Assembly: GCA_951812955.1 (NCBI GenBank)
Contig: OX638340.1
Span: forward strand, 352,001 to 416,000
Direction: 5' to 3'
Source of the DNA: an uncultured Gemmatimonadota bacterium
Lineage (GTDB): Bacteria > JAAXHH01
Length of the DNA: 64,000 bases
Shown: positions 3,360 to 57,315 of the stretch, one piece after another
Position numbering within the stretch: the stretch's first letter is position 1
Layout: each line of letters opens with the position of its first letter
The notes under the pieces: model-generated
The model's database searches: none
What the model was told of the DNA's origin: nothing
The model's input: the letters and a program-made list of their open reading frames with translations, nothing else
Position numbers and translations under genes: made by a program

Positions 3360-3639
3360 CAGCCTCCGTCTCCCTGTACTCTGTTCATACGAATCGTACT
3401 ATTGTCCAGTTACACCATTCACCATGCCATCCTCCGTTCCTCCCATCCTTCTCCTTTCCTCCTCCCAGGTCGGTCTGGTTTCTTCATTCCCTCTATTTTC
3501 ATCCGAGGTCACTTTAGTATTATTAGTAATAGTAATTTTAATGTTAAACCTAATATTTATAGTTCTAATCGTACTAAAATCAGTCGATCTACTGAAAGTG
3601 AACAGACATTCGCCCTAGAGATGGACGTTGAAGCCGTGA

Positions 3640-4866
3640 TCACCGTACCTTCCTGATGTCCCGAATGGCCCCATAGGGAACCCCGGTAATGTCCACCATT
3701 TCTTCGGCGCGGCGCACCGTTTCCGCGACCTCGTCTTTCAGGTCGTCCGGATAATACACCTGTCCGGCACGCACGGTCAGGTGCGGCGTGATCATTCGTT
3801 CACCGGATTCCTGCTGGCCGTGGGCGTCGGTGAAGTGAAAATGGCCCTCTTCCAGGTTGAAAACGGCGATATCGGCGACGCTTCCCTCCTTCAGTGTTCC
3901 GATTTCATCCGACCGGTTCAAAACGCCCGCGGGATTTACGGTCGTCTGGCGGACGATCTCATGGAAATCCAGTCCCATGTTCAGCAGTTTCGACGCCGTT
4001 TCAGGGAGGCTGTGCACCGGTGACTTCAGACTGTAGACGTGAAGGTCCGTACTGATTACGTCCGACAGAAAACCCAGTTCGACGGCCCGTTTCGCAATCC
4101 CGTAATGAAAGCTCCCGGCGCCGTGGCCCAGGTCGAAGAAAACGCCGCGCTTCCTTGCGTCGTACACTTCCGGGATCACCCGATCGTCGTCGCCGAGGAT
4201 ATGATCTCCCTTGCCCTGGTAGCAGTGGGTCACGATATCTCCCGGGCGAAGCAGTTCCAGCACACTTGGCAGGGAGACCCCCTTGTCGATATGGACCATG
4301 ACGCGTGTGTCCGCCATTTCGGCAGCTTCGACGGCCCGCCTGAGCGGTTCCACGCCGTGGCTTCCCACCTGGAATACGCCTTGCCGGACCTTCACGCCTA
4401 CGCAATGATGCGGCCACATGGATATAACCCGGGCCGTGTGCTCGGGATCGGCGTTTTTGATGTCCTCCATCTCGCCGCGCATGGCGTTCAGGAGTCCGAT
4501 GCTGCTGATATGGACGAAGGTGAGCACTTCGGTCCGGGACGGTTCGATAATGTACTCGAGGAAACCGCGCAGATTGGTCCATCCCGGGCTCCCTGCGTCC
4601 ACGATGGTCGTTACCCCCGTGGCCAGGCAGAGGGCGTCGGCCTTGATGCCGAAGGTCGTGGCGCCCGCGTAAACGTGGGCGTGAAGATCTATCCAGCCCG
4701 GTGTCAGGTATTTCCCCGATACGTCGATGGTCGTCTTCGATTCGCCTTCAAGGTGATCGGAAACCGCGGCTATTTTACCGTTTCTGATCCCGAGGTCACC
4801 TGTTTCATTCTTCCGTTGGGACGGATCGATGATCGTCGCACCCGATAGAACCAGGTCGAATTGCAT
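3640..4866 (-). CDS. Amidohydrolase-superfamily metallohydrolase (deacetylase/dihydroorotase-like)
   Basis: 408-aa ORF; N-terminal 'GWIDLHAHVY' H-x-H metal motif after a beta-sandwich lead-in; later His/Asp ligands ('MVHID', 'HCY', 'ISTDLH'). Confidence 0.7.
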   Translation of the reverse strand: MQFDLVLSGATIIDPSQRKNETGDLGIRNGKIAAVSDHLEGESKTTIDVSGKYLTPGWIDLHAHVYAGATTFGIKADALCLATGVTTIVDAGSPGWTNLRGFLEYIIEPSRTEVLTFVHISSIGLLNAMRGEMEDIKNADPEHTARVISMWPHHCVGVKVRQGVFQVGSHGVEPLRRAVEAAEMADTRVMVHIDKGVSLPSVLELLRPGDIVTHCYQGKGDHILGDDDRVIPEVYDARKRGVFFDLGHGAGSFHYGIAKRAVELGFLSDVISTDLHVYSLKSPVHSLPETASKLLNMGLDFHEIVRQTTVNPAGVLNRSDEIGTLKEGSVADIAVFNLEEGHFHFTDAHGQQESGERMITPHLTVRAGQVYYPDDLKDEVAETVRRAEEMVDITGVPYGAIRDIRKVR

Positions 4867-31538: not shown

Positions 31539-32087
31539 GTGCAAGGCATGGTAAGCGAGCATGTCCTCGTTCTGAACCAGAACTACGAGCCCTTGAGTGT
31601 TTGCACGGCAAGGCGGGCGGTAATCCTCGTGTTTCTGCGCAAGGCGGAGATCATTGACAAATACGCGGAACCGGTGCGTGGCGTGTACACGATGTTCGAC
31701 CGGCCCAGTATCGTCCGGCTGGTGAACTTCGTACGCATTCCCAGCAAGGGTATCATGCTGTCCCGCAAGAACATCCTCAAGCGGGACGGCCACCAGTGCC
31801 AGTATTGCAGCACAACGCGGGGCCCACTGACCGTGGATCATGTCCTGCCCAGGTACCTGGGAGGATCGGACAGCTGGGAGAACATGGTCTGCGCCTGCCA
31901 GCGGTGCAACAACAAAAAAGGGGACAGGCTCCCAGAAGAAGCGAACATGGAGCTCAGACGCAAGCCCAAGGCGCCCAGCAGGATTCACTTTATCCGGGAT
32001 TTCATAGGAATTCACCATCAATCCTGGCGCCCCTACATGTTTCTCAAGAACGACCGGCCGGAAGAAATACTATGGCCTACCAGGTAA
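31539..32087 (+). CDS. HNH endonuclease family protein
   Basis: 182-aa ORF; 'CQYC...LTVDHVLP...WENMVCACQRCNNKKGD' HNH/zinc-finger motif. Confidence 0.7.
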   Translation: MQGMVSEHVLVLNQNYEPLSVCTARRAVILVFLRKAEIIDKYAEPVRGVYTMFDRPSIVRLVNFVRIPSKGIMLSRKNILKRDGHQCQYCSTTRGPLTVDHVLPRYLGGSDSWENMVCACQRCNNKKGDRLPEEANMELRRKPKAPSRIHFIRDFIGIHHQSWRPYMFLKNDRPEEILWPTR

Positions 32088-32831: not shown

Positions 32832-33506
32832 ATGCAGAAGAAACTGATCATGGACCAGGCGCAGCTCGACGAATACCGCGCGATCACGGAAGCCGTGCTT
32901 TTCGCGAGTGACGCGCCGCTTAGCCTGAATGAACTCAGCCGCATCATGGACGATGTGGGCGAGGAAATGATCGGAAATTGCATCGAAGCCCTGAACGAGC
33001 GGTATGCGCAGGGCGGCCACGGTTTCGAAATCCGGCTCGTGGCCAACGGTTACCAGTTCAGCAGCAAGGTGGCTTACGCAAAGTGGATACGCCGGCTCTA
33101 CCGGGGCAGGATTCCATCCCGCCTGACACAGGCGGCCCTGGAATGTCTGTCGATCGTCGCGTATAAGCAACCCATCAGCCGATCCGAGGTGGAGGCGATA
33201 AGGGGTGTGAATGTCGACGGCGTATTGCGTACGCTGCTGGACCGCAACCTCATTCGTATCGCTGGCCGTGGGGAAGGCGTCGGCCGGCCGATTCTCTATG
33301 CGACAACGAGTGATTTTCTCAGGTATTTCGGGCTGAACAAGCTTTCGGACCTGCCCAAGCTGGACGAATTGAACGAATTGTTGAAGGAACAGGATATCGT
33401 GCTGGACGAAGATGACGAAGAGCCCGACCCGTCGCTGTTCCCGGGACCTGGGATAACGGCTGGCGAAACGGATGGGAAGATTGTATCCAGAGATGAGACT
33501 GAATAG
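32832..33506 (+). CDS. scpB: Segregation and condensation protein B
   Basis: 224-aa ORF; 'AITEAVLFASDAPLSLNEL' winged-helix ScpB signature. Confidence 0.85.
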   Translation: MQKKLIMDQAQLDEYRAITEAVLFASDAPLSLNELSRIMDDVGEEMIGNCIEALNERYAQGGHGFEIRLVANGYQFSSKVAYAKWIRRLYRGRIPSRLTQAALECLSIVAYKQPISRSEVEAIRGVNVDGVLRTLLDRNLIRIAGRGEGVGRPILYATTSDFLRYFGLNKLSDLPKLDELNELLKEQDIVLDEDDEEPDPSLFPGPGITAGETDGKIVSRDETE

Positions 33507-37847: not shown

Positions 37848-37896
37848 TAACCCCCGCGGATCAGCCTTCTCTGGCGTATATCCCCGCGGATCAGCC
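37837..37896. repeat. 30-bp tandem direct duplication of the tRNA-Arg 3' end plus flank (att-like scar)
   Basis: tctctggcgtataacccccgcggatcagcc (37837-37866) followed by tctctggcgtatatccccgcggatcagcc (37868-37896); the first copy includes the last ~11 nt of the tRNA. Confidence 0.7.
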
Positions 37897-38640
37897 CCGC
37901 CCTCCTGCCTGGTCATCATCGTCTTCTTCGCCAAGGTAAAGTTCGTTTTTCAGCAGATAACTTACCGTGGATGCATACCAACGGGTTTCCCTTGAAACCG
38001 CCGATGCACGTTTGGTGGGCACCTTCTGCTCATTGAGTTCATCCGCGATCTTGCGCAGGCTCCTGCCCTCGGCCCGCCAGTGCTTCACCTGCCTGATGAT
38101 CTCCTGCTCCCTTGAGTTGGGCACCAGCTGATTGCCGGACAGGTCGTATCCGTAAGGGATCGCGCCGTAAACGAACCGGTTGTTCTTTTTTTTCCGTATC
38201 CAGTTCTTCGTCCGCTCGGCGGGCAGGTCGCGGGCCAAACCGGCCAGCACGTTGAGCGTGCTCAGCACCACCTTCCCCTGTTCCTGATCGGTGCGGATGG
38301 ACATGCCATCGAGATCCAGCACGTGGCATATGATGCCTGCGCCGGACCAGGCCCCGAGGCAACCCGACATTTCGGCCGCTGACCTGAACAGCCGGTCGAG
38401 TCGCCAGATAACGATATGCTGGATGCCCTTCGATTCAACCGTGTTGGCCAGGTCCCGGCCACCCAGCCGATCCTCGAGCGGGATGAACGCCTCGACTCGG
38501 ATGTCGGGAATCACCAGCATGATGTCGAGGTCGTTTTCCGCGCAGTAGGACCTGAGCCGCTTCTCCTGGTCGGCCCTTCGAAAGGGATGCTTCCGGGTCT
38601 CCATCGGACCGACCCTGATATAGCATACCGCCTTTTTCAT
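37891..38640 (-). pseudogene. Truncated / probably inactive serine recombinase (resolvase-type N-terminus plus the start of a large-serine-recombinase 'recombinase' domain)
   Basis: 249-aa ORF. 'AVCYIRVGP' sits where 'Y-x-R-V-S' is expected (catalytic Ser replaced by Gly); conserved 'IVIWRLDRLFRS'; 'RFVYGAIPYGYDL...WYASTVSYLLKNELYLG' matches the start of the large-serine-recombinase recombinase domain, but the protein ends ~250 aa short, at the tRNA att-like repeat. Confidence 0.5.
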
Positions 38641-38887
38641 CTGGCGTCTCCCGGACCGTCTGGACCATGCCTTTTTGATGTCTCTTTAATTACTAAACAT
38701 ATTTTGTGTCTTTTCCCGATCCAAGGACTTTTTCGAAGCCGGCAGTGAAGGGGTCGGGAATCGACGTAAAACTTTTTGCTTGCTTGGTTTAATATGCCCC
38801 CATATATTAGAGCGGTGCTGCAGAAGTGGGCGAAGTAGTGCCCGCTTTTTTTTATGTGTTTTTCGTGCTGAAACTCGAAAATGCGCG

Positions 38888-39370
38888 ATGGAAACTGACC
38901 GTGATTCAATCCTTCGGAACGTCTCGTCACTCGCCAGGCCGATCGTCGACGAAGCCGGGTTCGAATGGGTGGAAATGGAACTGGCGGGTAGGCAGGGCAG
39001 TTTCGTCCTCAGGCTGCTGATCGATAAGCCGGGTGGCGTCACGATAGACGACTGTGTGGCAATCAATCGCGAATTGTCCAGCCTGCTCGATCAGGAAGAT
39101 CCCATTCCATCCCGCTATACGCTCGAAGTCTCTTCACCTGGCCTGGACCGGCCGTTCAAGACGGAAAGAGACTACCGGAAAGCCGTCGGTAAACGGGTAA
39201 AGGTCGTAACCGTGGACGACGACGGCGGGCAGGTCACCCGGATAGGGTGGCTCGAAGGCATTGAGGACGGCACGGTTGAAATCGTCTGTGGCGACGTAAA
39301 ACATCGTATTTCCGTCGCAAGCATCAGGAAAGCCCACCGGGAACTGGATCATGGATGGGAGAACGGTTAG
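38888..39370 (+). CDS. rimP: Ribosome maturation factor RimP
   Basis: Start at ATG 38888; 'YTLEVSSPGLDRP' RimP signature; immediately upstream of nusA. Confidence 0.8.
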   Translation: METDRDSILRNVSSLARPIVDEAGFEWVEMELAGRQGSFVLRLLIDKPGGVTIDDCVAINRELSSLLDQEDPIPSRYTLEVSSPGLDRPFKTERDYRKAVGKRVKVVTVDDDGGQVTRIGWLEGIEDGTVEIVCGDVKHRISVASIRKAHRELDHGWENG

Positions 39371-49682: not shown

Positions 49683-51131
49683 ATGATCCAGATCAAAGAA
49701 ATCGACCTCCGCATCCAGAACATGCGCACCCGCATGCCCTTCAAATTTGGCATATCGACCATGACGGCCGTGCCGCACCTGGTGCTTCGCATGGAACTGG
49801 AAGTGAACGGACGCACCGGCAGCGGATATTCCGCGGATCACCTGCCGCCGAAGTGGTTCACGAAGAACCCGGAGACGTCCCTCGAGGACGAAGTAGGGGA
49901 CATGATCTCCGTTATCCGCCACGCAAGCGACGCCGCGCTGGCCCTGGGACCCGCGCCCGATCTGTTCACCCTCTGGCTCGAACTCTACCAGGCCCAGAAG
50001 ATCTGGGGCAACGGGAGAGGTTTTGCGCCACTCCTGTGGGGCCTGGGAAACAGCCTGGTGGAAAGGGCCATGATCGAGGCTTTCTGCCGCATACAGGGCA
50101 CGGATTTCGGTAAAGCCGTGCGATCAAACGCCTTCGGCATTCGTTTCGATGCGTTCAATAGCCGTTTGAAGGGCCTGGCGCCCGCCGATGTGTTGCCCGG
50201 CTCCCCGATCACAGTCACCAACGTGCGCCATACCGTAGGGCTGGGAGACCCCCTGACCACGCAGGATATACCGCCGGAGGAGCTTTGCAACGACGGGCTG
50301 CCCCAGTCGCTGGACGAAGTCATCGACACCTATGGCATAACGTACTTCAAGATCAAGCTGTTCGGGGATGTAGCACGGGATATAGATCGCCTGAAGCAGA
50401 CGGCCAGTATCATCGACGGGCGATTGAACCAGTATGCGTTCACGCTGGACGGCAATGAAAACTACGGAGACATGGAAACGTTCCGGTCCTTCTGGGAATC
50501 ACTGCGGGCCGACCGTAATCTGGCAGGATTCCTCGGGCGGCTAATCTGCATCGAGCAGCCATTGCATCGCGATATAGCGCTGGATAAAGCACTCAGTGAG
50601 CATTTCGAGGCATGGCCTGACAGGCCACCATTCATTATCGACGAATCCGATGGGGACATCGGCGACCTGGAACGGGCCGTCGATATCGGTTACGCGGGTA
50701 CAAGTTACAAGAACTGTAAAGGAGTGTTCAAAGGGCTGTCCAACGCAGCTTATCTCGAGTACCTGGCAAGACAGCATCCGGACCGCCGGTACGTACTGAC
50801 GAGCGAAGACCTGTCCAACATCGGGCCGATCGCTCTTGCGCAGGACCTCGCAGTATTGGCCACATTAGGGGTTGACCACACAGAGCGGAACAGCCACCAT
50901 TACTTCAGAGGATTGACGACCTGGCCCCGCAAGATCCAGGAACAGATGCGATTATGTCATCCGGATCTGTTCAGTGTGCACGAAGAAGGTTTCACATGCA
51001 TGCACATCGAACAGGGTCGGATCAGTCTGGAGAGCGTAACGAAAAGTCCCTTCGGGGTAGGATTCGAATTCGACAGTTCAAAGCTTACCCCGCTGGATGA
51101 CTGGGAATATGCTACGCTGGATGTTGAATAA
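49683..51131 (+). CDS. Atypical long enolase-superfamily-like protein (MR subgroup KxK motif)
   Basis: 482-aa ORF; N-terminal 'IKEIDLRIQNMRTRMPFKFGIS...RMELEVNGRTGSGYS' capping-domain pattern, 'ITYFKIKLFGD' (K-x-K), 'LDGNENY', 'ICIEQP', 'IIDESDGD' in positions consistent with barrel-strand metal ligands. Not a standard family member; assigned by motif logic only. Confidence 0.4.
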   Translation: MIQIKEIDLRIQNMRTRMPFKFGISTMTAVPHLVLRMELEVNGRTGSGYSADHLPPKWFTKNPETSLEDEVGDMISVIRHASDAALALGPAPDLFTLWLELYQAQKIWGNGRGFAPLLWGLGNSLVERAMIEAFCRIQGTDFGKAVRSNAFGIRFDAFNSRLKGLAPADVLPGSPITVTNVRHTVGLGDPLTTQDIPPEELCNDGLPQSLDEVIDTYGITYFKIKLFGDVARDIDRLKQTASIIDGRLNQYAFTLDGNENYGDMETFRSFWESLRADRNLAGFLGRLICIEQPLHRDIALDKALSEHFEAWPDRPPFIIDESDGDIGDLERAVDIGYAGTSYKNCKGVFKGLSNAAYLEYLARQHPDRRYVLTSEDLSNIGPIALAQDLAVLATLGVDHTERNSHHYFRGLTTWPRKIQEQMRLCHPDLFSVHEEGFTCMHIEQGRISLESVTKSPFGVGFEFDSSKLTPLDDWEYATLDVE

Positions 51132-51926
51132 CAAGCGTGTGAGTGATGTTCGACATTTTGGAATTTTCATCGCGCGGAGAATTTACACCGAACCGGACGT
51201 ACAAATAGAAAGTAAATTGTACGCTTTCTGGAGCAAAACATACAGACAGAGTATTCATTGTACATTTGAAGCAGACCGATGTACAAATCATATAACAATT
51301 GTACAAATATACAGAAACGCTATGAAAGCACGCGAAATGAGCCTTCGGGCAGAGATCGATAAGAAAATCCGGCCGGTCACGATGAGCTCGCGGCATCAAT
51401 TAGTACGTTTCGGAACCGAAAATCGGGATTTCGAGGGTAGTTTCGACCCACCCCCTGACCCTCCAGGGACCGGATCAGAGCACATATAGATTTACATAAT
51501 ATCTATTATGCGAAGTAGGGATTTAGAGGGGTATACGAGGGATTTTGGGTCCGGAGACTATAAATCAGCTCAGAATAGACTTTCGAGAGGTAATGTACAA
51601 AAGAAAGATTATTTGTACGAACGCGGTAAATCTGAATACAAAAGAGGTAATGTTTGTACGAATGGGTGAATAGCATGTACAGAGATAGATAGAATAGTAC
51701 AGTGATACTAGTACAAATATAAAGATGGTTGTACAAGTTTGTTGAGATATCGTACTAAGAATAGATGTATTGTACGCAGGGTTATCTTAATAAAAATCTT
51801 AATTTGTATTTTTCGTGGCATGACAAATTAAAATCGAAAGATGTAAATGAAACAAACCTCGTTTCTTCAGAATGCAACCTCCCGTTCAATCCAGCATTCC
51901 AATCACCAATTTCCAGAGTAAATTCC
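51131..51926. repeat. ~800-bp low-GC island densely populated with TGTAC(A/G) motifs and longer imperfect direct repeats
   Basis: At least 14 copies of tgtaca/tgtacg/agtaca (e.g. cattgtacattt, cgatgtacaaatc, caattgtacaaatat, taatgtacaaaag, atttgtacgaacg, gtttgtacgaatg, catgtacagag, actagtacaaatat, ggttgtacaagtt, attgtacgcagg). 'agaggtaatgt' recurs ~55 bp apart. GC visibly ~35% against ~62% for the flanks. Confidence 0.75.
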
Positions 51927-52919
51927 TTGCGGTCACAACGACTGGTCAACACTGATTTCCGAAAGATAATACTGGAAGAGTATGAGATTCCTTCCGTGCC
52001 GGATGACAGTGTACTCGTACAAAACGAATATACTGCTGTCAGCGTAGGCACTGAAGTCTACAATTATATACATGGGTGTGAACCGGGCGGTGAGCCTCGA
52101 TTCCCCAGGAACACGGGCTATTGCAACGCAGGTGTAGCGCTGAAGGTTGGTAGGGACGTGCAGGGGATTGTACCGGGGGATCGTGTCGCCGGCCAGGGAA
52201 ACCACGCAAGTCATTCCATAATGTCGGGCTTGATCAGCAAGGTGCCGGCGAACGTATCGTCCAGGGCGGCGGCGTTCATGGTGATGTGTGCGACCTCATT
52301 GCATGGTCACCGCGTTGCCCGTCCCGAGCTGGGCGAGGCCGTCGTAGTGACCGGCATGGGCATCGTCGGTCAATTGGCTGCATCCTTTGCCCGGCTGAGC
52401 GGCGCTGTACCCGTCATTGGCGTGGATTTGGACGACTTTCGCCTTCAAAAAGCCCGTGAACGCGGGGTCGACGTGTGTATCAACCCGGAAAAGGAACCTG
52501 ATGTGGCTGAGGCGGTGCGCCGGTACTGTGCGGCAGACGGTGCTGACTTGGTCATCGAAGCGACCGGGGTACCCTCCGTGTATCCAATGGCACTGACCCT
52601 GCCGAGACTCGGCGGCCGTTTGCTCGCCCTCGGTTCGCCGCGCGGATCGGTGGAAGTGAGCTTTTTCGCCGAGGTCCATCTGCGCGAGGTCACGATCCTG
52701 GGCGCCCACCAGCCCAAAACACCTGATGAGGCTGACCTGTACTATCCCTGGAGCAAGCGAAGGGACCGCGACCTGGTCCTCCGGCTCATGGGTGAAGGAA
52801 AACTGCCGATCGAAGACCTGATTACTCACGAAGCAAATCCCGCCGATTGCCAGTCCGTTTACGACATGCTTGCGGATCGTCCCAGGGATGTGCTTGGGGT
52901 GGTGTTCAGGTGGGTGTGA
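51927..52919 (+). CDS. Zinc-dependent alcohol dehydrogenase (MDR family); 5' end uncertain
   Basis: ORF 51765..52919, but its first ~55 codons are low-GC junk. Recognisable MDR sequence starts near 'KIILEEYEIPSVPDDSVLVQNEYTAVSVGTEVYNY'; in-frame TTG at 51927 proposed as start. 'VTGMGIVGQLAA' Rossmann motif. Confidence 0.65.
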   Translation: MRSQRLVNTDFRKIILEEYEIPSVPDDSVLVQNEYTAVSVGTEVYNYIHGCEPGGEPRFPRNTGYCNAGVALKVGRDVQGIVPGDRVAGQGNHASHSIMSGLISKVPANVSSRAAAFMVMCATSLHGHRVARPELGEAVVVTGMGIVGQLAASFARLSGAVPVIGVDLDDFRLQKARERGVDVCINPEKEPDVAEAVRRYCAADGADLVIEATGVPSVYPMALTLPRLGGRLLALGSPRGSVEVSFFAEVHLREVTILGAHQPKTPDEADLYYPWSKRRDRDLVLRLMGEGKLPIEDLITHEANPADCQSVYDMLADRPRDVLGVVFRWV

Positions 52920-53065
52920 TCCCATACGATTTTCTCCTTGACTTGAACCCTGATTTTGCCGTTATGTTAACGGTCGGGTTTCACCATTGTACCGGTGAAT
53001 CCCGGTATGCGTAACCATTTGCAAGACAAGCATTTACCAATTGTATGAAATCGAGAGGAAGTTCC

Positions 53066-53308
53066 ATGACCGTATCCATCAAGCTCTTTGCCACCCTGCG
53101 GAAATTCCTGCCCGAAAACGCGGTCAACAAAACCGCGACGCTTGAACTCGGAGACCAGGCCACGGCGAGCGATATCATCAAGCAATTGGACATCCCCGAT
53201 GGCCACATACACCTGATTCTGATCGACGGCAAGCACTCGGCTGAAGACACCCCCCTTACCGACGGCGCGGTGGTCAGCTTTTTTCCACCGATTGCCGGCG
53301 GGGCGTAG
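53066..53308 (+). CDS. MoaD/ThiS-family ubiquitin-like sulfur-carrier-type protein ending ...IAGGA
   Basis: Start at ATG 53066 with GAGAGGAAG Shine-Dalgarno sequence; 'MTVSIKLFATLRKF...LELGDQATASDIIKQL...DGAVVSFFPPIAGGA' beta-grasp pattern with a Gly-Gly followed by one extra Ala before the stop. Confidence 0.55.
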   Translation: MTVSIKLFATLRKFLPENAVNKTATLELGDQATASDIIKQLDIPDGHIHLILIDGKHSAEDTPLTDGAVVSFFPPIAGGA

Positions 53309-53313
53309 GGTCG

Positions 53314-53607
53314 GTGTCCCACCATACCTTCTACGGATTCAAGCTGGAAGACGCCGTACGGGGACTGAAACGGGCGCTGCGGGACGAACAGATCCCCGTC
53401 GTATCGATCAGCGAGGATGAAAACAAGGTAGTCTTCGCAGTTCGGATCTCATCTGAAACAGGCAAAATCAGCCTGGTCGCCCATACCACCAATGCCCATC
53501 CCCTGGCCAGGCTCGGTGATATACCCGCGATCGAAGTCGCGGTCGACGATCATCTCCCCGATGTTAGGTCCGTGCTCACCATGGCATTTCTGAGAGGCGG
53601 AGGCTGA
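53314..53607 (+). CDS. Hypothetical small protein (97 aa) ending ...RGGG
   Basis: ORF 6 nt downstream of the MoaD-like gene; no family recognised by eye; C-terminus 'AFLRGGG'. Confidence 0.35.
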   Translation: MSHHTFYGFKLEDAVRGLKRALRDEQIPVVSISEDENKVVFAVRISSETGKISLVAHTTNAHPLARLGDIPAIEVAVDDHLPDVRSVLTMAFLRGGG

Positions 53608-56874: not shown

Positions 56875-57315
56875 ATGCGGGTATCGGCCAAGGCGGAGTA
56901 TGCTTGCAGGGCCGTGCTGGAGTTGACAAGGTACCATGAGAAGGCGGAAGTCATCCATATCGGCGACATTGCCGTCCGCCAGTCCATACCGGAGAAGTAC
57001 CTCGTTCAGATCCTGCTGCAGTTGCAGCGCGCCGGGCTGGTCAAGAGCAAACGCGGGGCGACAGGCGGATATGCGCTCGCCCGCGCACCGGGAGAGATCT
57101 CGCTGGGTGATGTGATCCGGGCGATGGACGGCGCGCTGATCGCCGTCGAGAGCCTGTCCGACGATACGAATGTGTCCGATCAAATGAGCGGCCAGCATGT
57201 ATTGAAGAACGTCTGGATGGATGTGCAGGATAGACTCGGCGAAATCATGGACGGGATCACTTTCGATGAAATCTCGCGACAGGCGCAAAAAAGCCTTTCC
57301 ATGTACTACATATAA
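56875..57315 (+). CDS. Rrf2-family transcriptional regulator (CymR/IscR-like)
   Basis: 146-aa ORF; 'MRVSAKAEYACRAVLEL' and 'KSKRGATGGYALARAP' Rrf2 helix-turn-helix signature; sits directly upstream of a cysteine-synthase gene. Confidence 0.85.
   Translation: MRVSAKAEYACRAVLELTRYHEKAEVIHIGDIAVRQSIPEKYLVQILLQLQRAGLVKSKRGATGGYALARAPGEISLGDVIRAMDGALIAVESLSDDTNVSDQMSGQHVLKNVWMDVQDRLGEIMDGITFDEISRQAQKSLSMYYI

What the first reader, a model, noticed from the sequence alone, without database searches (positions are those of the whole stretch)
51131..51930. Low-GC island packed with TGTAC(A/G) motifs, sharing a 9-mer with a second AT-rich island
An ~800-bp, ~35% GC non-coding stretch in a ~62% GC genome carries at least 14 copies of TGTACA/TGTACG/AGTACA, often as 'TTGTACAAAT'-like extended sites, plus ~55-bp-spaced repeats ('agaggtaatgt...'). 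The 9-mer ATCGTACTA occurs here (51749) and twice in a second AT-rich gap (3394, 3567). That density of a palindromic GTAC-core motif is far beyond chance. It suggests an array of operator sites for an unknown regulator, an iteron-like origin/partition site, or the scar of a foreign AT-rich element targeted by a nucleoid-associated silencer. It sits between an atypical enolase-like gene and an MDR dehydrogenase whose annotated 5' end dissolves into the island.
Basis: seen in the sequence. Interest (0 to 1): 0.65.

Follow-up and report, generated by a model that had tools for sequence, protein, structure and literature searches.

The report
Chromosome dif site bracketed by phased arrays
The AT-rich island holds the site (dif) where the XerC/XerD enzymes separate joined daughter chromosomes, and it is flanked on both sides by evenly spaced binding sites for an unknown protein, an arrangement I did not find described for bacteria.

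Summary
The non-coding stretch 51132-51926 is the lowest-GC part of the window (39% vs 60%). It carries 15 GTAC cores where about 2.5 are expected, and 9 neighbouring spacings of 20-22 bp where 0.02 are expected.

At 51489-51516 lies a canonical 28-bp XerC/XerD dif site, 24/28 identical to a published dif. It is unique in the window and 25-28/28 conserved in 22 related genomes.

The GTAC motifs form 8 pairs of sites (GTACAAA..TTTGTAC, exactly 20 bp apart). Three pairs lie on the XerD side and five on the XerC side, at nearly invariant distances from dif, while the spacers between them drift freely. A motif model finds these pairs nowhere else in about 300 kb of flanking DNA.

In distant relatives (50-62% identity in the neighbouring protein, 38-44% GC) the arrays still bracket dif, although the neighbouring genes and distances differ.

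Most likely the arrays bind a dedicated, unidentified protein that forms a complex bracketing dif. It could act as a barrier or anchor, or as Xer accessory architecture. The binder and its function are not established.

The link to the second AT-rich island is chance. The foreign-scar, origin, RNA and small-ORF readings are not supported.

The parts
51132..51926 (.). Whole non-coding AT-rich island between the enolase-superfamily-like ORF (stop at 51131) and the MDR dehydrogenase (probable TTG start at 51927)
   Evidence: for composition and ORFs. for the conserved TTG.
51489..51516 (-). dif site. The minus strand reads ACTTCGCATAA (XerC arm) TAGATA (central) TTATGTAAATC (XerD arm). On the + strand the XerD arm is 51489-51499, the central hexamer 51500-51505 and the XerC arm 51506-51516.
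   Evidence: 24/28 identical to the published Methylobacillus flagellatus dif, 23/28 to Thiobacillus and Bordetella, 20/28 to E. coli. It is the only match in 64 kb. It is 26-28/28 identical in 19 related loci and 25-26/28 in three more distant ones.
51196..51310 (+). Left array on the XerD side: 3 site pairs, 6 sites. GTAC starts are at 51199/51219, 51240 (ATAC)/51260 and 51281/51301. Relative to the first base of dif these are -290, -270, -249, -229, -208, -188.
51592..51703 (+). Right array, sub-array a, on the XerC side: 3 site pairs. GTAC starts are at 51595/51615, 51636 (ATAC)/51656 and 51677/51697, that is +106 to +208 from dif.
51708..51780 (+). Right array, sub-array b: 2 site pairs at 51711/51731 and 51752/51772 (+222 to +283). 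It is offset 14-15 bp from sub-array a instead of 21-22 bp, so it lies on a different helical face.
51384..51580 (.). Central block of about 195 bp, conserved in primary sequence around dif in the main clade. It holds three direct copies of GGGATTTnGAGGG-like sequence (about 51420-51437, 51513-51530, 51537-51549), the C-rich CCACCCCCTGACCCTCC (51448-51464) and a TCCGGnAACCGGA-type palindrome (51462-51474). Function unknown; these may be further protein-binding sites.
   Evidence: No RNA covariation on either strand. No conserved ORF.
51311..51383 (.). Linker of variable sequence between the left array and the central block. Its length is constant in most of the 20 genomes. In four genomes the left array is shifted by about +10, -9/-10, -11/-12 and +9 bp, each close to one helical turn.

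Best explanation
The island is this bacterium's chromosome dimer-resolution locus.

Shown:
- A canonical 28-bp XerC/XerD dif core lies at 51489-51516.
- It sits in a conserved AT-rich platform of about 600 bp.
- Sixteen TGTACA-type sites form 8 pairs (tGTACAAA, an AT-rich stretch of about 10 bp, then aTTGTACAAa), with GTAC-to-GTAC spacing of exactly 20 bp, which is two helical turns.
- Successive pairs are 21-22 bp apart. Three pairs lie on the XerD side and five on the XerC side.

Inferred (about 0.85): the sites are bound by a dedicated, still unidentified sequence-specific protein. It probably binds as a dimer-of-dimers per pair, coats about 110 bp on the left and about 180 bp on the right largely on one face of the helix, and has a function tied to dif.

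Inferred more weakly (about 0.4, my preferred mechanism): the two protein-coated arrays act as a bracket that insulates and positions dif. They would be a roadblock or anchor for machines that travel along the chromosome (Smc-ScpAB loop extrusion, transcription) or for attachment to the division site. This would keep the 225-290 bp holding dif free and correctly placed for XerCD/FtsK recombination. The closest precedent is the pair of TrmBL2-bound regions flanking dif in Thermococcus.
For: dif identity:
- 24/28 match to a published dif, with an identical XerC arm and 9/11 positions of the XerD arm.
- Unique in the window.
- 25-28/28 conserved in 22 other genomes.

Arrays as selected binding sites:
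- GTAC positions relative to dif are nearly invariant in 20 genomes, while the spacers are unalignable.
- Spacing within a pair is 20 bp in 141 of 145 cases.
- Position-specific variants are conserved: R4 is always TTAGTAC, R7 mostly ATAC, R9 mostly GTAT.
- Enrichment and phasing are far beyond a Markov-1 expectation.

Tie to dif:
- A motif model built without the window or its near-twin finds exactly the 8 pairs and nothing else in 64 kb.
- No pair occurs outside the dif island in about 300 kb from 20 genomes, apart from a displaced array in L016.
- In three distant lineages (L151, L152, L155; 62/56/50% identity in the enolase-like protein; GC 0.44/0.44/0.38) the same motif at 20/21-bp spacing again lies on both sides of dif. 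Pair numbers, distances and neighbouring genes differ.
- Arrays lie on both sides in 4 of 4 lineages, which is what a bracket needs.

Context:
- ScpB is encoded in the window, so the clade has Smc-ScpAB.
- The island has the highest A-tract density in the window.
- In Thermococcus, two TrmBL2 peaks bracket dif and stall Smc, with an A-tract correlation, and the authors propose a general avoidance of SMC traversal across dif (PMC11840125).
Against: - No binding protein was identified. Every neighbouring gene tested is metabolic, membrane-associated or ubiquitin-like.
- Both arrays have the same sequence polarity rather than mirror symmetry about dif.
- The near base-pair-exact geometry and the shifts of about one helical turn within the main clade fit direct structural coupling to the Xer synapse (rival 1) at least as well as a barrier.
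- L002 has a shortened right array. L016 has its right array pushed about 300 bp away by an insertion. Exact geometry is therefore dispensable in some genomes.
- Location at the replication terminus could not be verified. GC skew does not change sign at the site. Gene orientation converges only about 9 kb to the right.
- A search for KOPS-like skewed words was uninformative.
Confidence: 0.45

Rival explanations
1. Xer accessory architecture. The arrays bind an accessory protein that wraps or loops the DNA around dif and assembles a defined synaptic complex. This would control when, in which direction or with what topology XerC/XerD recombine. It would be a chromosomal counterpart of the accessory sequences of the plasmid sites cer and psi (ArgR/PepA, ArcA/PepA), or of the arm sites of lambda attP.
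For: - The right array occupies +105 to +288 next to the XerC arm, about where plasmid accessory sequences lie (own knowledge of cer/psi).
- Distances to the core are fixed to within 1 bp in 17 genomes on the right.
- On the left they change only by about one helical turn.
- The left array and sub-array a of the right array have the same 6-site layout (20-21-20-22-20 against 20-22-20-21-20), which suggests they pair.
- A further 170 bp or so around dif is conserved at the DNA level without RNA or coding signal.
Against: - Distances and pair numbers differ between lineages: -81/+181 in L152, -121/+104 in L155, -187/+105 in the main clade.
- Arrays lie on both sides, whereas plasmid accessory sequences lie on one side.
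- No ARG box or ArcA box lies in the right array. The only weak ARG-box-like hit (3 mismatches) falls inside a TGTACA site of the left array.
- A topological filter is not expected to work for megabase chromosome dimers, where FtsK normally provides control (established knowledge).
- L016 and L002 tolerate disruption of the right array.
Confidence: 0.25
2. Replication fork trap. The arrays are Ter-like sites for a terminator protein, making a third system functionally analogous to Tus-Ter and RTP-Ter, that makes forks meet at dif.
For: - Multiple dimer-type sites sit immediately on both sides of dif, which lies near the terminus in most bacteria (PMC3025954).
- Fork traps have arisen independently at least twice, and most bacteria have no known one (PMC10331603).
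- From memory, the B. subtilis Ter B-site core (TATGTACYAAAT) resembles tGTACAAAt.
Against: - No match to the Tus-Ter or RTP-Ter consensus at the mismatch levels tested.
- Both arrays have the same polarity, not the opposed polarity that defines a trap.
- A non-polar block on both sides would leave dif unreplicated.
- No terminator-protein-like gene lies nearby.
- The terminus position is unverified.
Confidence: 0.08
3. Transcriptional operator arrays. A repressor or activator of the flanking genes (MDR dehydrogenase, enolase-like gene, or ThiS/Ubl/OmpA operon) binds the sites, and dif merely shares the intergenic region.
For: - The sites are palindromic and intergenic.
- Promoter-like hexamers are enriched in the island (9 against 2.7 expected), though that is expected for AT-rich DNA.
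- The right array lies upstream of a + strand gene in all lineages.
Against: - Sixteen sites over about 580 bp, on both sides of dif, is far more than any operator needs.
- The left array lies downstream of the stop codon of a co-directional gene.
- The arrays stay with dif while the flanking genes change: enolase-like|MDR in the window, DUF4112|ThiS in L152, WD40|ThiS in L155, enolase-like|CoA-transferase in L151.
- No other pair occurs in about 300 kb.
Confidence: 0.07
4. Iteron-type origin or centromere, or the scar of a foreign AT-rich element (IS, prophage, or an Xer-dependent integrated element) silenced by a nucleoid protein.
For: - The DNA is AT-rich with regularly spaced repeats.
- Phage contigs can carry perfect 20-bp TTTTGTACAAATTGAYCAAA tandem repeats.
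- L016 shows that DNA can be inserted next to this dif.
Against: - The island is conserved at the same locus in more than 20 genomes spanning 38-60% GC.
- There is only one dif, not the duplicated sites such an integrated element would leave.
- No rep, par or transposase gene was found in the tested ORFs, which cover about 20 kb to the left and the rest of the window to the right.
- The island has no DnaA box and no parS.
- GC skew has no minimum at the site.
- Nothing matches in 50,697 phage or 72,556 plasmid records.
- The repeats are site-conserved but spacer-divergent, unlike the phage tandem repeats.
Confidence: 0.03

Closest known systems
Chromosomal dif / XerC-XerD / FtsK dimer resolution (E. 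coli, B. subtilis, many phyla)
   Same: A 28-bp core with 11-bp XerC and XerD arms around a 6-bp centre. It is 24/28 identical to a published proteobacterial dif, intergenic, and single-copy within the DNA examined.
   Different: Known dif sites are described as a bare 28-mer in variable surroundings (PMC2731167). Here about 170 bp more around the core is conserved, and 16 phased TGTACA sites bracket it.
Thermococcus kodakarensis dif boundary: two TrmBL2-bound regions flanking dif that stall Smc-ScpAB (PMC11840125)
   Same: Protein-bound, AT-rich, A-tract-rich DNA lies on both sides of dif. The host encodes Smc-ScpAB (ScpB in the window). The bracket arrangement is conserved across lineages.
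   Different: That system is archaeal and uses XerA. TrmBL2 is a low-specificity filament-forming nucleoid protein with only a loose AT-rich motif. Here the sites are sharply defined, sequence-specific and phased to the base pair. No TrmB-like gene was seen, and Smc stalling here is purely inferred.
Plasmid Xer sites cer (ColE1) and psi (pSC101) with accessory sequences bound by ArgR/PepA or ArcA/PepA
   Same: An Xer core plus about 180-200 bp of accessory protein-binding DNA at a fixed distance on the XerC-arm side. This is a nucleoprotein architecture rather than a bare core.
   Different: This site is chromosomal, not plasmid-borne. Arrays lie on both sides. The motif is different: there is no ArcA box, and the only ARG-box-like hit is a weak one (3 mismatches) inside a left-array site. 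Geometry varies between lineages.
Terminus-binding proteins MatP/matS (E. coli) and ZapT (Caulobacter) (PMC7858052)
   Same: A sequence-specific protein marks the dif/terminus region. It could link the region to the divisome or exclude SMC-type complexes.
   Different: matS and ZapT sites are dispersed over hundreds of kb, not packed next to dif. There is no matS in the window.
Replication fork traps: RTP-Ter (B. subtilis) and Tus-Ter (E. coli) (PMC10331603)
   Same: Terminus-associated multi-site protein-DNA complexes. Each RTP Ter site binds two dimers cooperatively. From memory, there is a GTAC-containing core.
   Different: No consensus match. No opposed polarity. No adjacent terminator-protein gene. 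The sites sit within 300 bp of dif rather than spread over the terminus region.
NikR-type operators (two palindromic half-operators two helical turns apart, bound by a dimer-of-dimers) and the F-plasmid sopC centromere (tandem 43-bp units, each with an inverted repeat). Both from own knowledge.
   Same: The geometry of one pair (20 bp centre to centre, same face) and of the roughly 41-bp repeating unit.
   Different: The resemblance is only geometric. Sequence and context differ, and no cognate gene is present.

Membership tests
XerC/XerD dif site | 28 bp: two 11-bp arms with partial dyad symmetry (inner ATAA / TTAT) separated by a 6-bp central region | tested here: met
   ACTTCGCATAA-TAGATA-TTATGTAAATC on the minus strand at 51489-51516
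XerC/XerD dif site | Sequence match to experimentally anchored or published dif sites, especially the XerD arm | tested here: met
   24/28 to M. flagellatus, 23/28 to T. denitrificans and B. pertussis, 22/28 to G. sulfurreducens, 20/28 to E. coli. Sequences come from PMC2731167, except the E. coli 28-mer, which was entered from memory.
XerC/XerD dif site | Single occurrence per chromosome | tested here: inconclusive
   Unique in the 64-kb window, and the only high-scoring match in each locus of 4.5-13 kb. Whole chromosomes could not be scanned.
XerC/XerD dif site | Location near the replication terminus / GC-skew shift point | tested here: inconclusive
   Skew is positive on both sides of the site. 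Cumulative skew peaks about 7 kb and gene orientation converges about 9 kb to the right. Published dif-to-shift-point distances range from under 1 kb to tens of kb. 64 kb is too short to decide.
XerC/XerD dif site | Cognate XerC/XerD recombinases and FtsK encoded in the genome | not testable with these tools
   No tyrosine recombinase or FtsK domain among the 42 window ORFs scanned; about 16 called ORFs in the leftmost 21 kb were not scanned.
XerC/XerD dif site | Conserved at the orthologous locus in relatives | tested here: met
   26-28/28 in 19 loci and 25-26/28 in three distant lineages
cer/psi-type Xer accessory sequences | ARG box (ArgR) or ArcA box plus PepA sites within about 200 bp on the XerC side | tested here: not met
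   No ARG-box or ArcA-box match in the right array. One weak ARG-box-like hit (3 mismatches) lies inside a TGTACA site of the left array.
cer/psi-type Xer accessory sequences | Accessory DNA on one side of the core only; plasmid-borne multimer-resolution site | tested here: not met
   Arrays lie on both sides. The locus is chromosomal and syntenic, in chromosomes of 3.7-3.9 Mb. No plasmid match.
Tus-Ter / RTP-Ter replication fork trap | Match to a Ter consensus | tested here: not met
   No hit to AGNATGTTGTAACTAA (up to 3 mismatches), to the RTP Ter consensus (from memory, up to 6 mismatches) or to its B-site core (up to 1 mismatch)
Tus-Ter / RTP-Ter replication fork trap | Two groups of sites with opposed polarity flanking the terminus | tested here: not met
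   In both arrays the right-hand site of each pair is the stronger palindrome and the inner spacer is A-rich on the + strand, so polarity is the same on both sides of dif
MatP/matS Ter macrodomain | GTGACRNYGTCAC sites dispersed over the terminus region | tested here: not met
   0 hits with up to 1 mismatch in 64 kb
Iteron origin / plasmid-type centromere (oriV, sopC, parC, parS) | Repeats adjacent to rep or par genes, with DnaA boxes or parS | tested here: not met
   No rep or par gene among the ORFs scanned (31.5 kb to the window end plus selected ORFs further left). No DnaA box or parS in the island. No GC-skew minimum at the site.
Structured non-coding RNA or small protein gene in the central block | Covarying base pairs, an Rfam match, or a frame-conserved ORF | tested here: not met
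   No Rfam hit at E <= 1. 0 and 1 compensatory pairs on the two strands. The 55-aa ORF is absent or cut to 30 aa or fewer in 9 of 20 genomes and uses a different frame over the same conserved DNA.
TrmBL2-type SMC roadblock at dif | Protein-bound AT-rich regions on both sides of dif in an Smc-ScpAB-encoding organism | tested here: inconclusive
   The bracket geometry, A-tract richness and a ScpB gene are present. Binding and Smc stalling cannot be tested in silico, and no TrmB-family gene was seen in the window.

The most novel reading that the evidence does not exclude
A whole uncultured clade carries a previously undescribed dif-organising system. A dedicated sequence-specific protein assembles phased, filament-like arrays on both sides of the dimer-resolution site. 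The clade is made up of genomes assembled from metagenomes, labelled Gemmatimonadetes or Latescibacterota, with 38-60% GC. This would be the first bacterial, sequence-defined counterpart of a CTCF/TrmBL2-type chromosomal boundary at dif. Alternatively it would be the first chromosomal Xer site with obligatory accessory architecture, or a third independently evolved fork trap.
Probability: 0.5. Interest if true: 0.8.

Novelty: new variant of a known kind. Interest (0 to 1): 0.66.

Why it matters
dif is one of the most studied bacterial recombination sites and is normally treated as a bare 28-mer whose control comes from FtsK. Here the core sits inside a base-pair-precise scaffold of 16 sites that has been kept while genome GC drifted from 38 to 60%. 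That implies an unknown protein partner and an unknown layer of control at the point where replication termination, SMC loop extrusion, decatenation, dimer resolution and septation meet.

The finding makes one open question directly testable: do bacteria use sequence-specific barriers to keep SMC or other machines off dif, as proposed from archaeal data? The cis element is sharply defined and short enough for DAP-seq, pull-downs or transplantation into a model organism.

It also gives annotators a practical marker for the dif locus, and so for the likely terminus region, in genomes of this uncultured clade. It also corrects the start of the adjacent dehydrogenase gene.

Tried and rejected
1. 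Rfam scan of 50900-52100 at E <= 1 found nothing.
2. RNAalifold on the central block, both strands, found no covariation.
3. The small ORF 51322-51489 is not conserved and uses different frames over the same DNA.
4. A scan of viral contigs with a two-pair pattern gave 9 hits. All were perfect or degenerate tandem repeats in unrelated contexts. The neighbours of the two best (L022, L027) gave no DNA-binding clue.
That scan was wasted, and a less repeat-prone pattern should have been used.
6. The search for a binder among neighbours found no DNA-binding candidate.
   - The 112-aa ORF after dUTPase is a membrane protein of the holin 4-2 type.
   - The 97-aa ORF ends in LRGGG like ubiquitin and sits next to ThiS.
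   - The 74-aa ORF in L152 and L155 is DUF6980.
   - The other neighbours are metabolic.
   - The Rrf2 regulator at 56875 belongs to a cysteine or Fe-S cluster context.
7. The search for KOPS-like words whose strand skew flips at dif was dominated by homologous coding sequence and was uninformative. GGGNAGGG shows no bias.
8. A homology search with the 97-aa protein, meant to reach more distant loci, returned only the same clade.
9. A literature search for the motif words returned Gateway att primers, which are irrelevant.
10. Consensus scans for matS, Ter, ARG box, ArcA box, parS and DnaA box found nothing relevant in the island.
11. Phage and plasmid BLAST of the island found no match.
12. 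The XerD arm (TTATGTAAAT) and the array half-site (TTGTACAAAT) look alike by eye but do not align without a gap. Binding of the arrays by XerD was considered and not adopted.

Full report
**1. Observation**

The stretch 51131-51930 is real and exceptional.
- It has 39% GC against 59.8% for the window. It is the lowest-GC 800-bp stretch and has the highest A-tract density in the 64 kb.
- It contains 15 GTAC cores against a window mean of 3.0 per 800 bp.
- A first-order Markov model trained on the island itself predicts 2.5 +/- 1.5 GTAC. It predicts 0.02 neighbouring spacings of 20-22 bp, where 9 are seen. None of 3000 simulations reached either value.
- The stretch is non-coding. The enolase-superfamily-like ORF ends at 51131.
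- The MDR dehydrogenase almost certainly starts at a TTG at 51927 that is conserved in most relatives. The ATG at 51765 lies inside the repeat array.

- The 9-mer shared with the island at 3360-3640 is within chance. The islands share five 9-mers against 2.2 in shuffles (P = 0.12). The 9-mer is not conserved in relatives.
- The 'agaggtaatgt' pair lies in different registers relative to the motif.

**2. Anatomy**

The GTAC cores are not scattered.
- Their start-to-start spacings are 20, 41, 21, 20 in a left cluster and 20, 41, 21, 20, 14, 20, 21, 20 in a right cluster. Each 41 hides a degenerate ATAC site.
- The unit is a pair of sites 20 bp apart (two helical turns): tGTACAAA, then about 10 AT-rich bases, then aTTGTACAAa.
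- Successive pairs are 21-22 bp apart, and the spacers between pairs are GC-neutral.
- The window has 3 pairs on the left (51196-51310) and 5 on the right (51592-51780).
- The last two right-hand pairs are offset by 14-15 bp and so lie on another helical face.

**3. Source organism and relatives**

Searching one genome per species with the upstream protein returned 20 syntenic loci (78-95% amino-acid identity). They come from metagenome-assembled genomes labelled Gemmatimonadetes or Candidatus Latescibacterota, several of them complete 3.7-3.9 Mb chromosomes.
- Nineteen of them reach past the gene, and all 19 carry the same AT-rich island with the same GTAC pattern.
- In the alignment the GTAC sites stand out as conserved columns in otherwise unalignable spacers. 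That is the signature of selected protein-binding sites.

**4. The missed element: dif**

Between the clusters lies a block conserved at the DNA level, with a 30-mer that is near-invariant in all genomes.
- On the minus strand it reads ACTTCGCATAA-TAGATA-TTATGTAAATC (window 51489-51516).
- This is a canonical XerC/XerD dif site.
- It matches 24/28 positions of the published dif of Methylobacillus flagellatus (ACTTCGCATAATGTATATTATGTAAAAT), 23/28 of Thiobacillus denitrificans and Bordetella pertussis, and 20/28 of E. coli. The XerC arm is identical and the XerD arm matches at 9/11 (PMC2731167).
- It is the only such site in the window. It is 26-28/28 identical in the 19 relatives.

**5. The arrays belong to dif**

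Measured from the first base of dif, GTAC starts are nearly invariant in 20 genomes.
- Left array: -290, -270, -249, -229, -207/-208, -187/-188.
- Right array: +105/106, +125/126, +147/148, +167/168, +188/189, +208/209, (+223), +243, (+264), +284.
- The right array never moves in 17 genomes.
- The left array is shifted as a block in four genomes by +10, -9/-10, -11/-12 and +9 bp. Each shift is about one helical turn, and none is intermediate.
- Spacing within a pair is 20 bp in 141 of 145 cases.
- Weak variants are position-specific and conserved: R4 is TTAGTAC, R7 ATAC, R9 GTAT.

A pair model built from relatives only recovers exactly the eight pairs of the window, with scores of at least 25.7 bits, and nothing else above 12 bits in 64 kb. 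Across 20 genomes and about 300 kb of flanks there is no pair outside the island. The one exception is L016, where an insertion of about 330 bp next to dif has pushed the right array outward.

The strongest evidence comes from three more distant lineages, reached through homologues of the upstream protein (62%, 56% and 50% identity; genome GC 0.44, 0.44 and 0.38).
- Each again has a dif that is 25-26/28 identical.
- Each again has GTACAAA/TTTGTAC-type sites at 20/21-bp spacing on both sides of dif.
- In L152 the sites are at -142, -122, -101, -81 and +181, +201, +222, +242.
- L155 has two left pairs with the variant TGTAYTAATCTATATCTATCTGTACA and a degenerate right array.
- Distances and pair numbers differ.
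- The neighbouring genes also differ: DUF4112|ThiS, WD40|ThiS, and enolase-like|CoA-transferase.

**6. What it is not**
- No Rfam family matches. There is no covariation on either strand.
- The 55-aa ORF between the arrays is absent or cut to 30 aa or fewer in 9 of 20 genomes. It is read in a different frame over the same conserved DNA.
- There is no matS and no Tus or RTP Ter match in the window. The island has no DnaA box, parS or ArcA box, and its only ARG-box-like hit is a weak one inside a left-array site.
- Nothing matches in phage or plasmid collections.
- GC skew shows no minimum or sign change at the site.
- Neighbouring genes are pnp, an M16 peptidase, dut, a holin-like membrane protein, the enolase-like protein, the MDR dehydrogenase, ThiS, a ubiquitin-like 97-aa protein, an OmpA-like protein and FTCD. 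None looks like the binder.
- No tyrosine recombinase or FtsK lies among the window ORFs scanned, but ScpB does.

**7. Mechanism**

*Shown:* a dif core; 16 phased sites in 8 pairs bracketing it; exclusivity to dif; conservation over a clade spanning 38-60% GC.

*Inferred with good confidence (about 0.85):* the sites bind one dedicated sequence-specific protein.
- It probably binds as a dimer-of-dimers per pair.
- Each strong site, TTGTACAA, is itself an 8-bp palindrome.
- Partners two turns apart lie on the same helical face, a geometry known from NikR-type operators (own knowledge).
- The protein's function concerns dif.

*Preferred function (about 0.4):* a bracket that insulates or positions dif.
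- Arrays lie on both sides in all four lineages, while the distance to the core is lineage-specific. The inner sites are 225-292 bp apart. This fits a barrier or anchor better than a fixed synaptic scaffold.
- The nearest precedent is Thermococcus kodakarensis. There, two TrmBL2-bound, A-tract-rich regions flank dif and stall Smc-ScpAB. The authors argue that prokaryotes generally avoid SMC traversal of dif, citing XerD/XDS in B. subtilis and MatP/matS in E. coli (PMC11840125).

*Main rival (about 0.25):* Xer accessory architecture like cer or psi. It is favoured by the base-pair-exact geometry and helical-turn indels within the main clade, by the matching six-site layout of the left array and right sub-array a, and by the extra conserved 170 bp around the core.

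*Weaker rivals:*
- A fork trap (about 0.08) is disfavoured by the identical polarity of both arrays.
- Operator arrays for the flanking genes (about 0.07) are disfavoured by the gene turnover around dif.

**8. Limits**
- The binder is unknown.
- The terminus location could not be checked. Skew stays positive for about 7 kb to the right, and gene orientation converges at about 60.9 kb.
- Whole-genome uniqueness of dif and of the pairs is untested.
- My one metagenome scan was swamped by satellites.

**9. Verdict**

The island is the dif locus, a known kind of site. Its conserved, phased, two-sided array architecture is one I could not find described: the dif surveys read here do not mention flanking arrays. 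I class it as a new variant of a known kind, of real interest to people working on chromosome segregation. It is directly testable because the cis element is so sharply defined.

Noticed in passing
window 53045-53308 and 53314-53607 (+): Two tandem small proteins lie downstream of dif: a ThiS/Ub-Mut7C-like protein and a 97-aa protein with no Pfam match. The second has an invariant C-terminus, TMAFLRGGG, resembling the LRGG tail of ubiquitin. The pair is conserved next to an OmpA-like gene throughout the clade, including the distant L152 and L155. It may be a bacterial ubiquitin-like or sulfur-carrier system.
   Followed up: partly
L016 7927-8260: In one relative, about 330 bp of unrelated DNA sits within about 10-15 bp of the XerC arm of dif. 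It displaces the right array by about 300 bp, and this genome also has a fourth left pair. It could be a small element that integrated at dif or a local rearrangement.
   Followed up: partly
window 51420-51437, 51513-51530, 51537-51549; also 51448-51464: Three direct copies of GGGATTTnGAGGG-like sequence and a CCCCCTGACCC block flank the dif core and are conserved in the main clade. CCCCTG(G)A-like words recur near dif in L151 and L152. They may be sites for a second factor.
   Followed up: partly
window 51927: The MDR/Zn-dehydrogenase gene most likely starts at a TTG at 51927 that is conserved in most relatives, giving 330 aa. An ORF call from the ATG at 51765 would run through the right array.
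   Followed up: yes
window 37891-38640 (-), 31539-32087 (+), low-GC 38400-39200: There is a 249-aa ORF with serine-recombinase Resolvase and Recombinase domains, short for a large serine recombinase, and a separate HNH endonuclease ORF. They may be remnants of mobile elements.
   Followed up: no
window 3360-3640: The second AT-rich gap lies between an MR/MLE-family gene and an amidohydrolase, both on the minus strand. It combines a CT-rich tract (ccatcctccgttcctcccatcc...) with an AT-rich tract. It has no TGTACA pair and no dif, and is probably an ordinary promoter or leader region.
   Followed up: partly
window 49683-51131 (+): The 482-aa enolase-like protein matches Pfam MR_MLE_C only weakly (E = 1e-4, below the cut-off) and matches no NCBIfam model. 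It nevertheless has more than 4000 homologues at E <= 1e-20 in several phyla, named mostly as 'hypothetical'. It appears to be a large uncharacterised family.
   Followed up: partly
L022 1817-1880 and L027 4199-4340 (viral contigs): These carry perfect tandem 20-bp repeats, TTTTGTACA(A/G)ATTGAYCAAA, which contain the same TTGTACAAAT word. They look like phage iterons. Neighbouring ORFs gave no informative domains.
   Followed up: partly
window about 31.3 kb and about 60.9 kb; L151 6447-7160: Gene orientation diverges at about 31.3 kb and converges at about 60.9 kb. In L151 a CoA-transferase gene lies on the minus strand directly right of dif, while in the window its homologue is on the + strand 8 kb away. 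This hints at an inversion with one end at dif, which could explain why GC skew stays positive just right of dif.
   Followed up: no
window 32832-33506 (+): ScpB, a subunit of Smc-ScpAB, is encoded 18 kb from dif, which shows that the clade has the Smc-ScpAB condensin.
   Followed up: no
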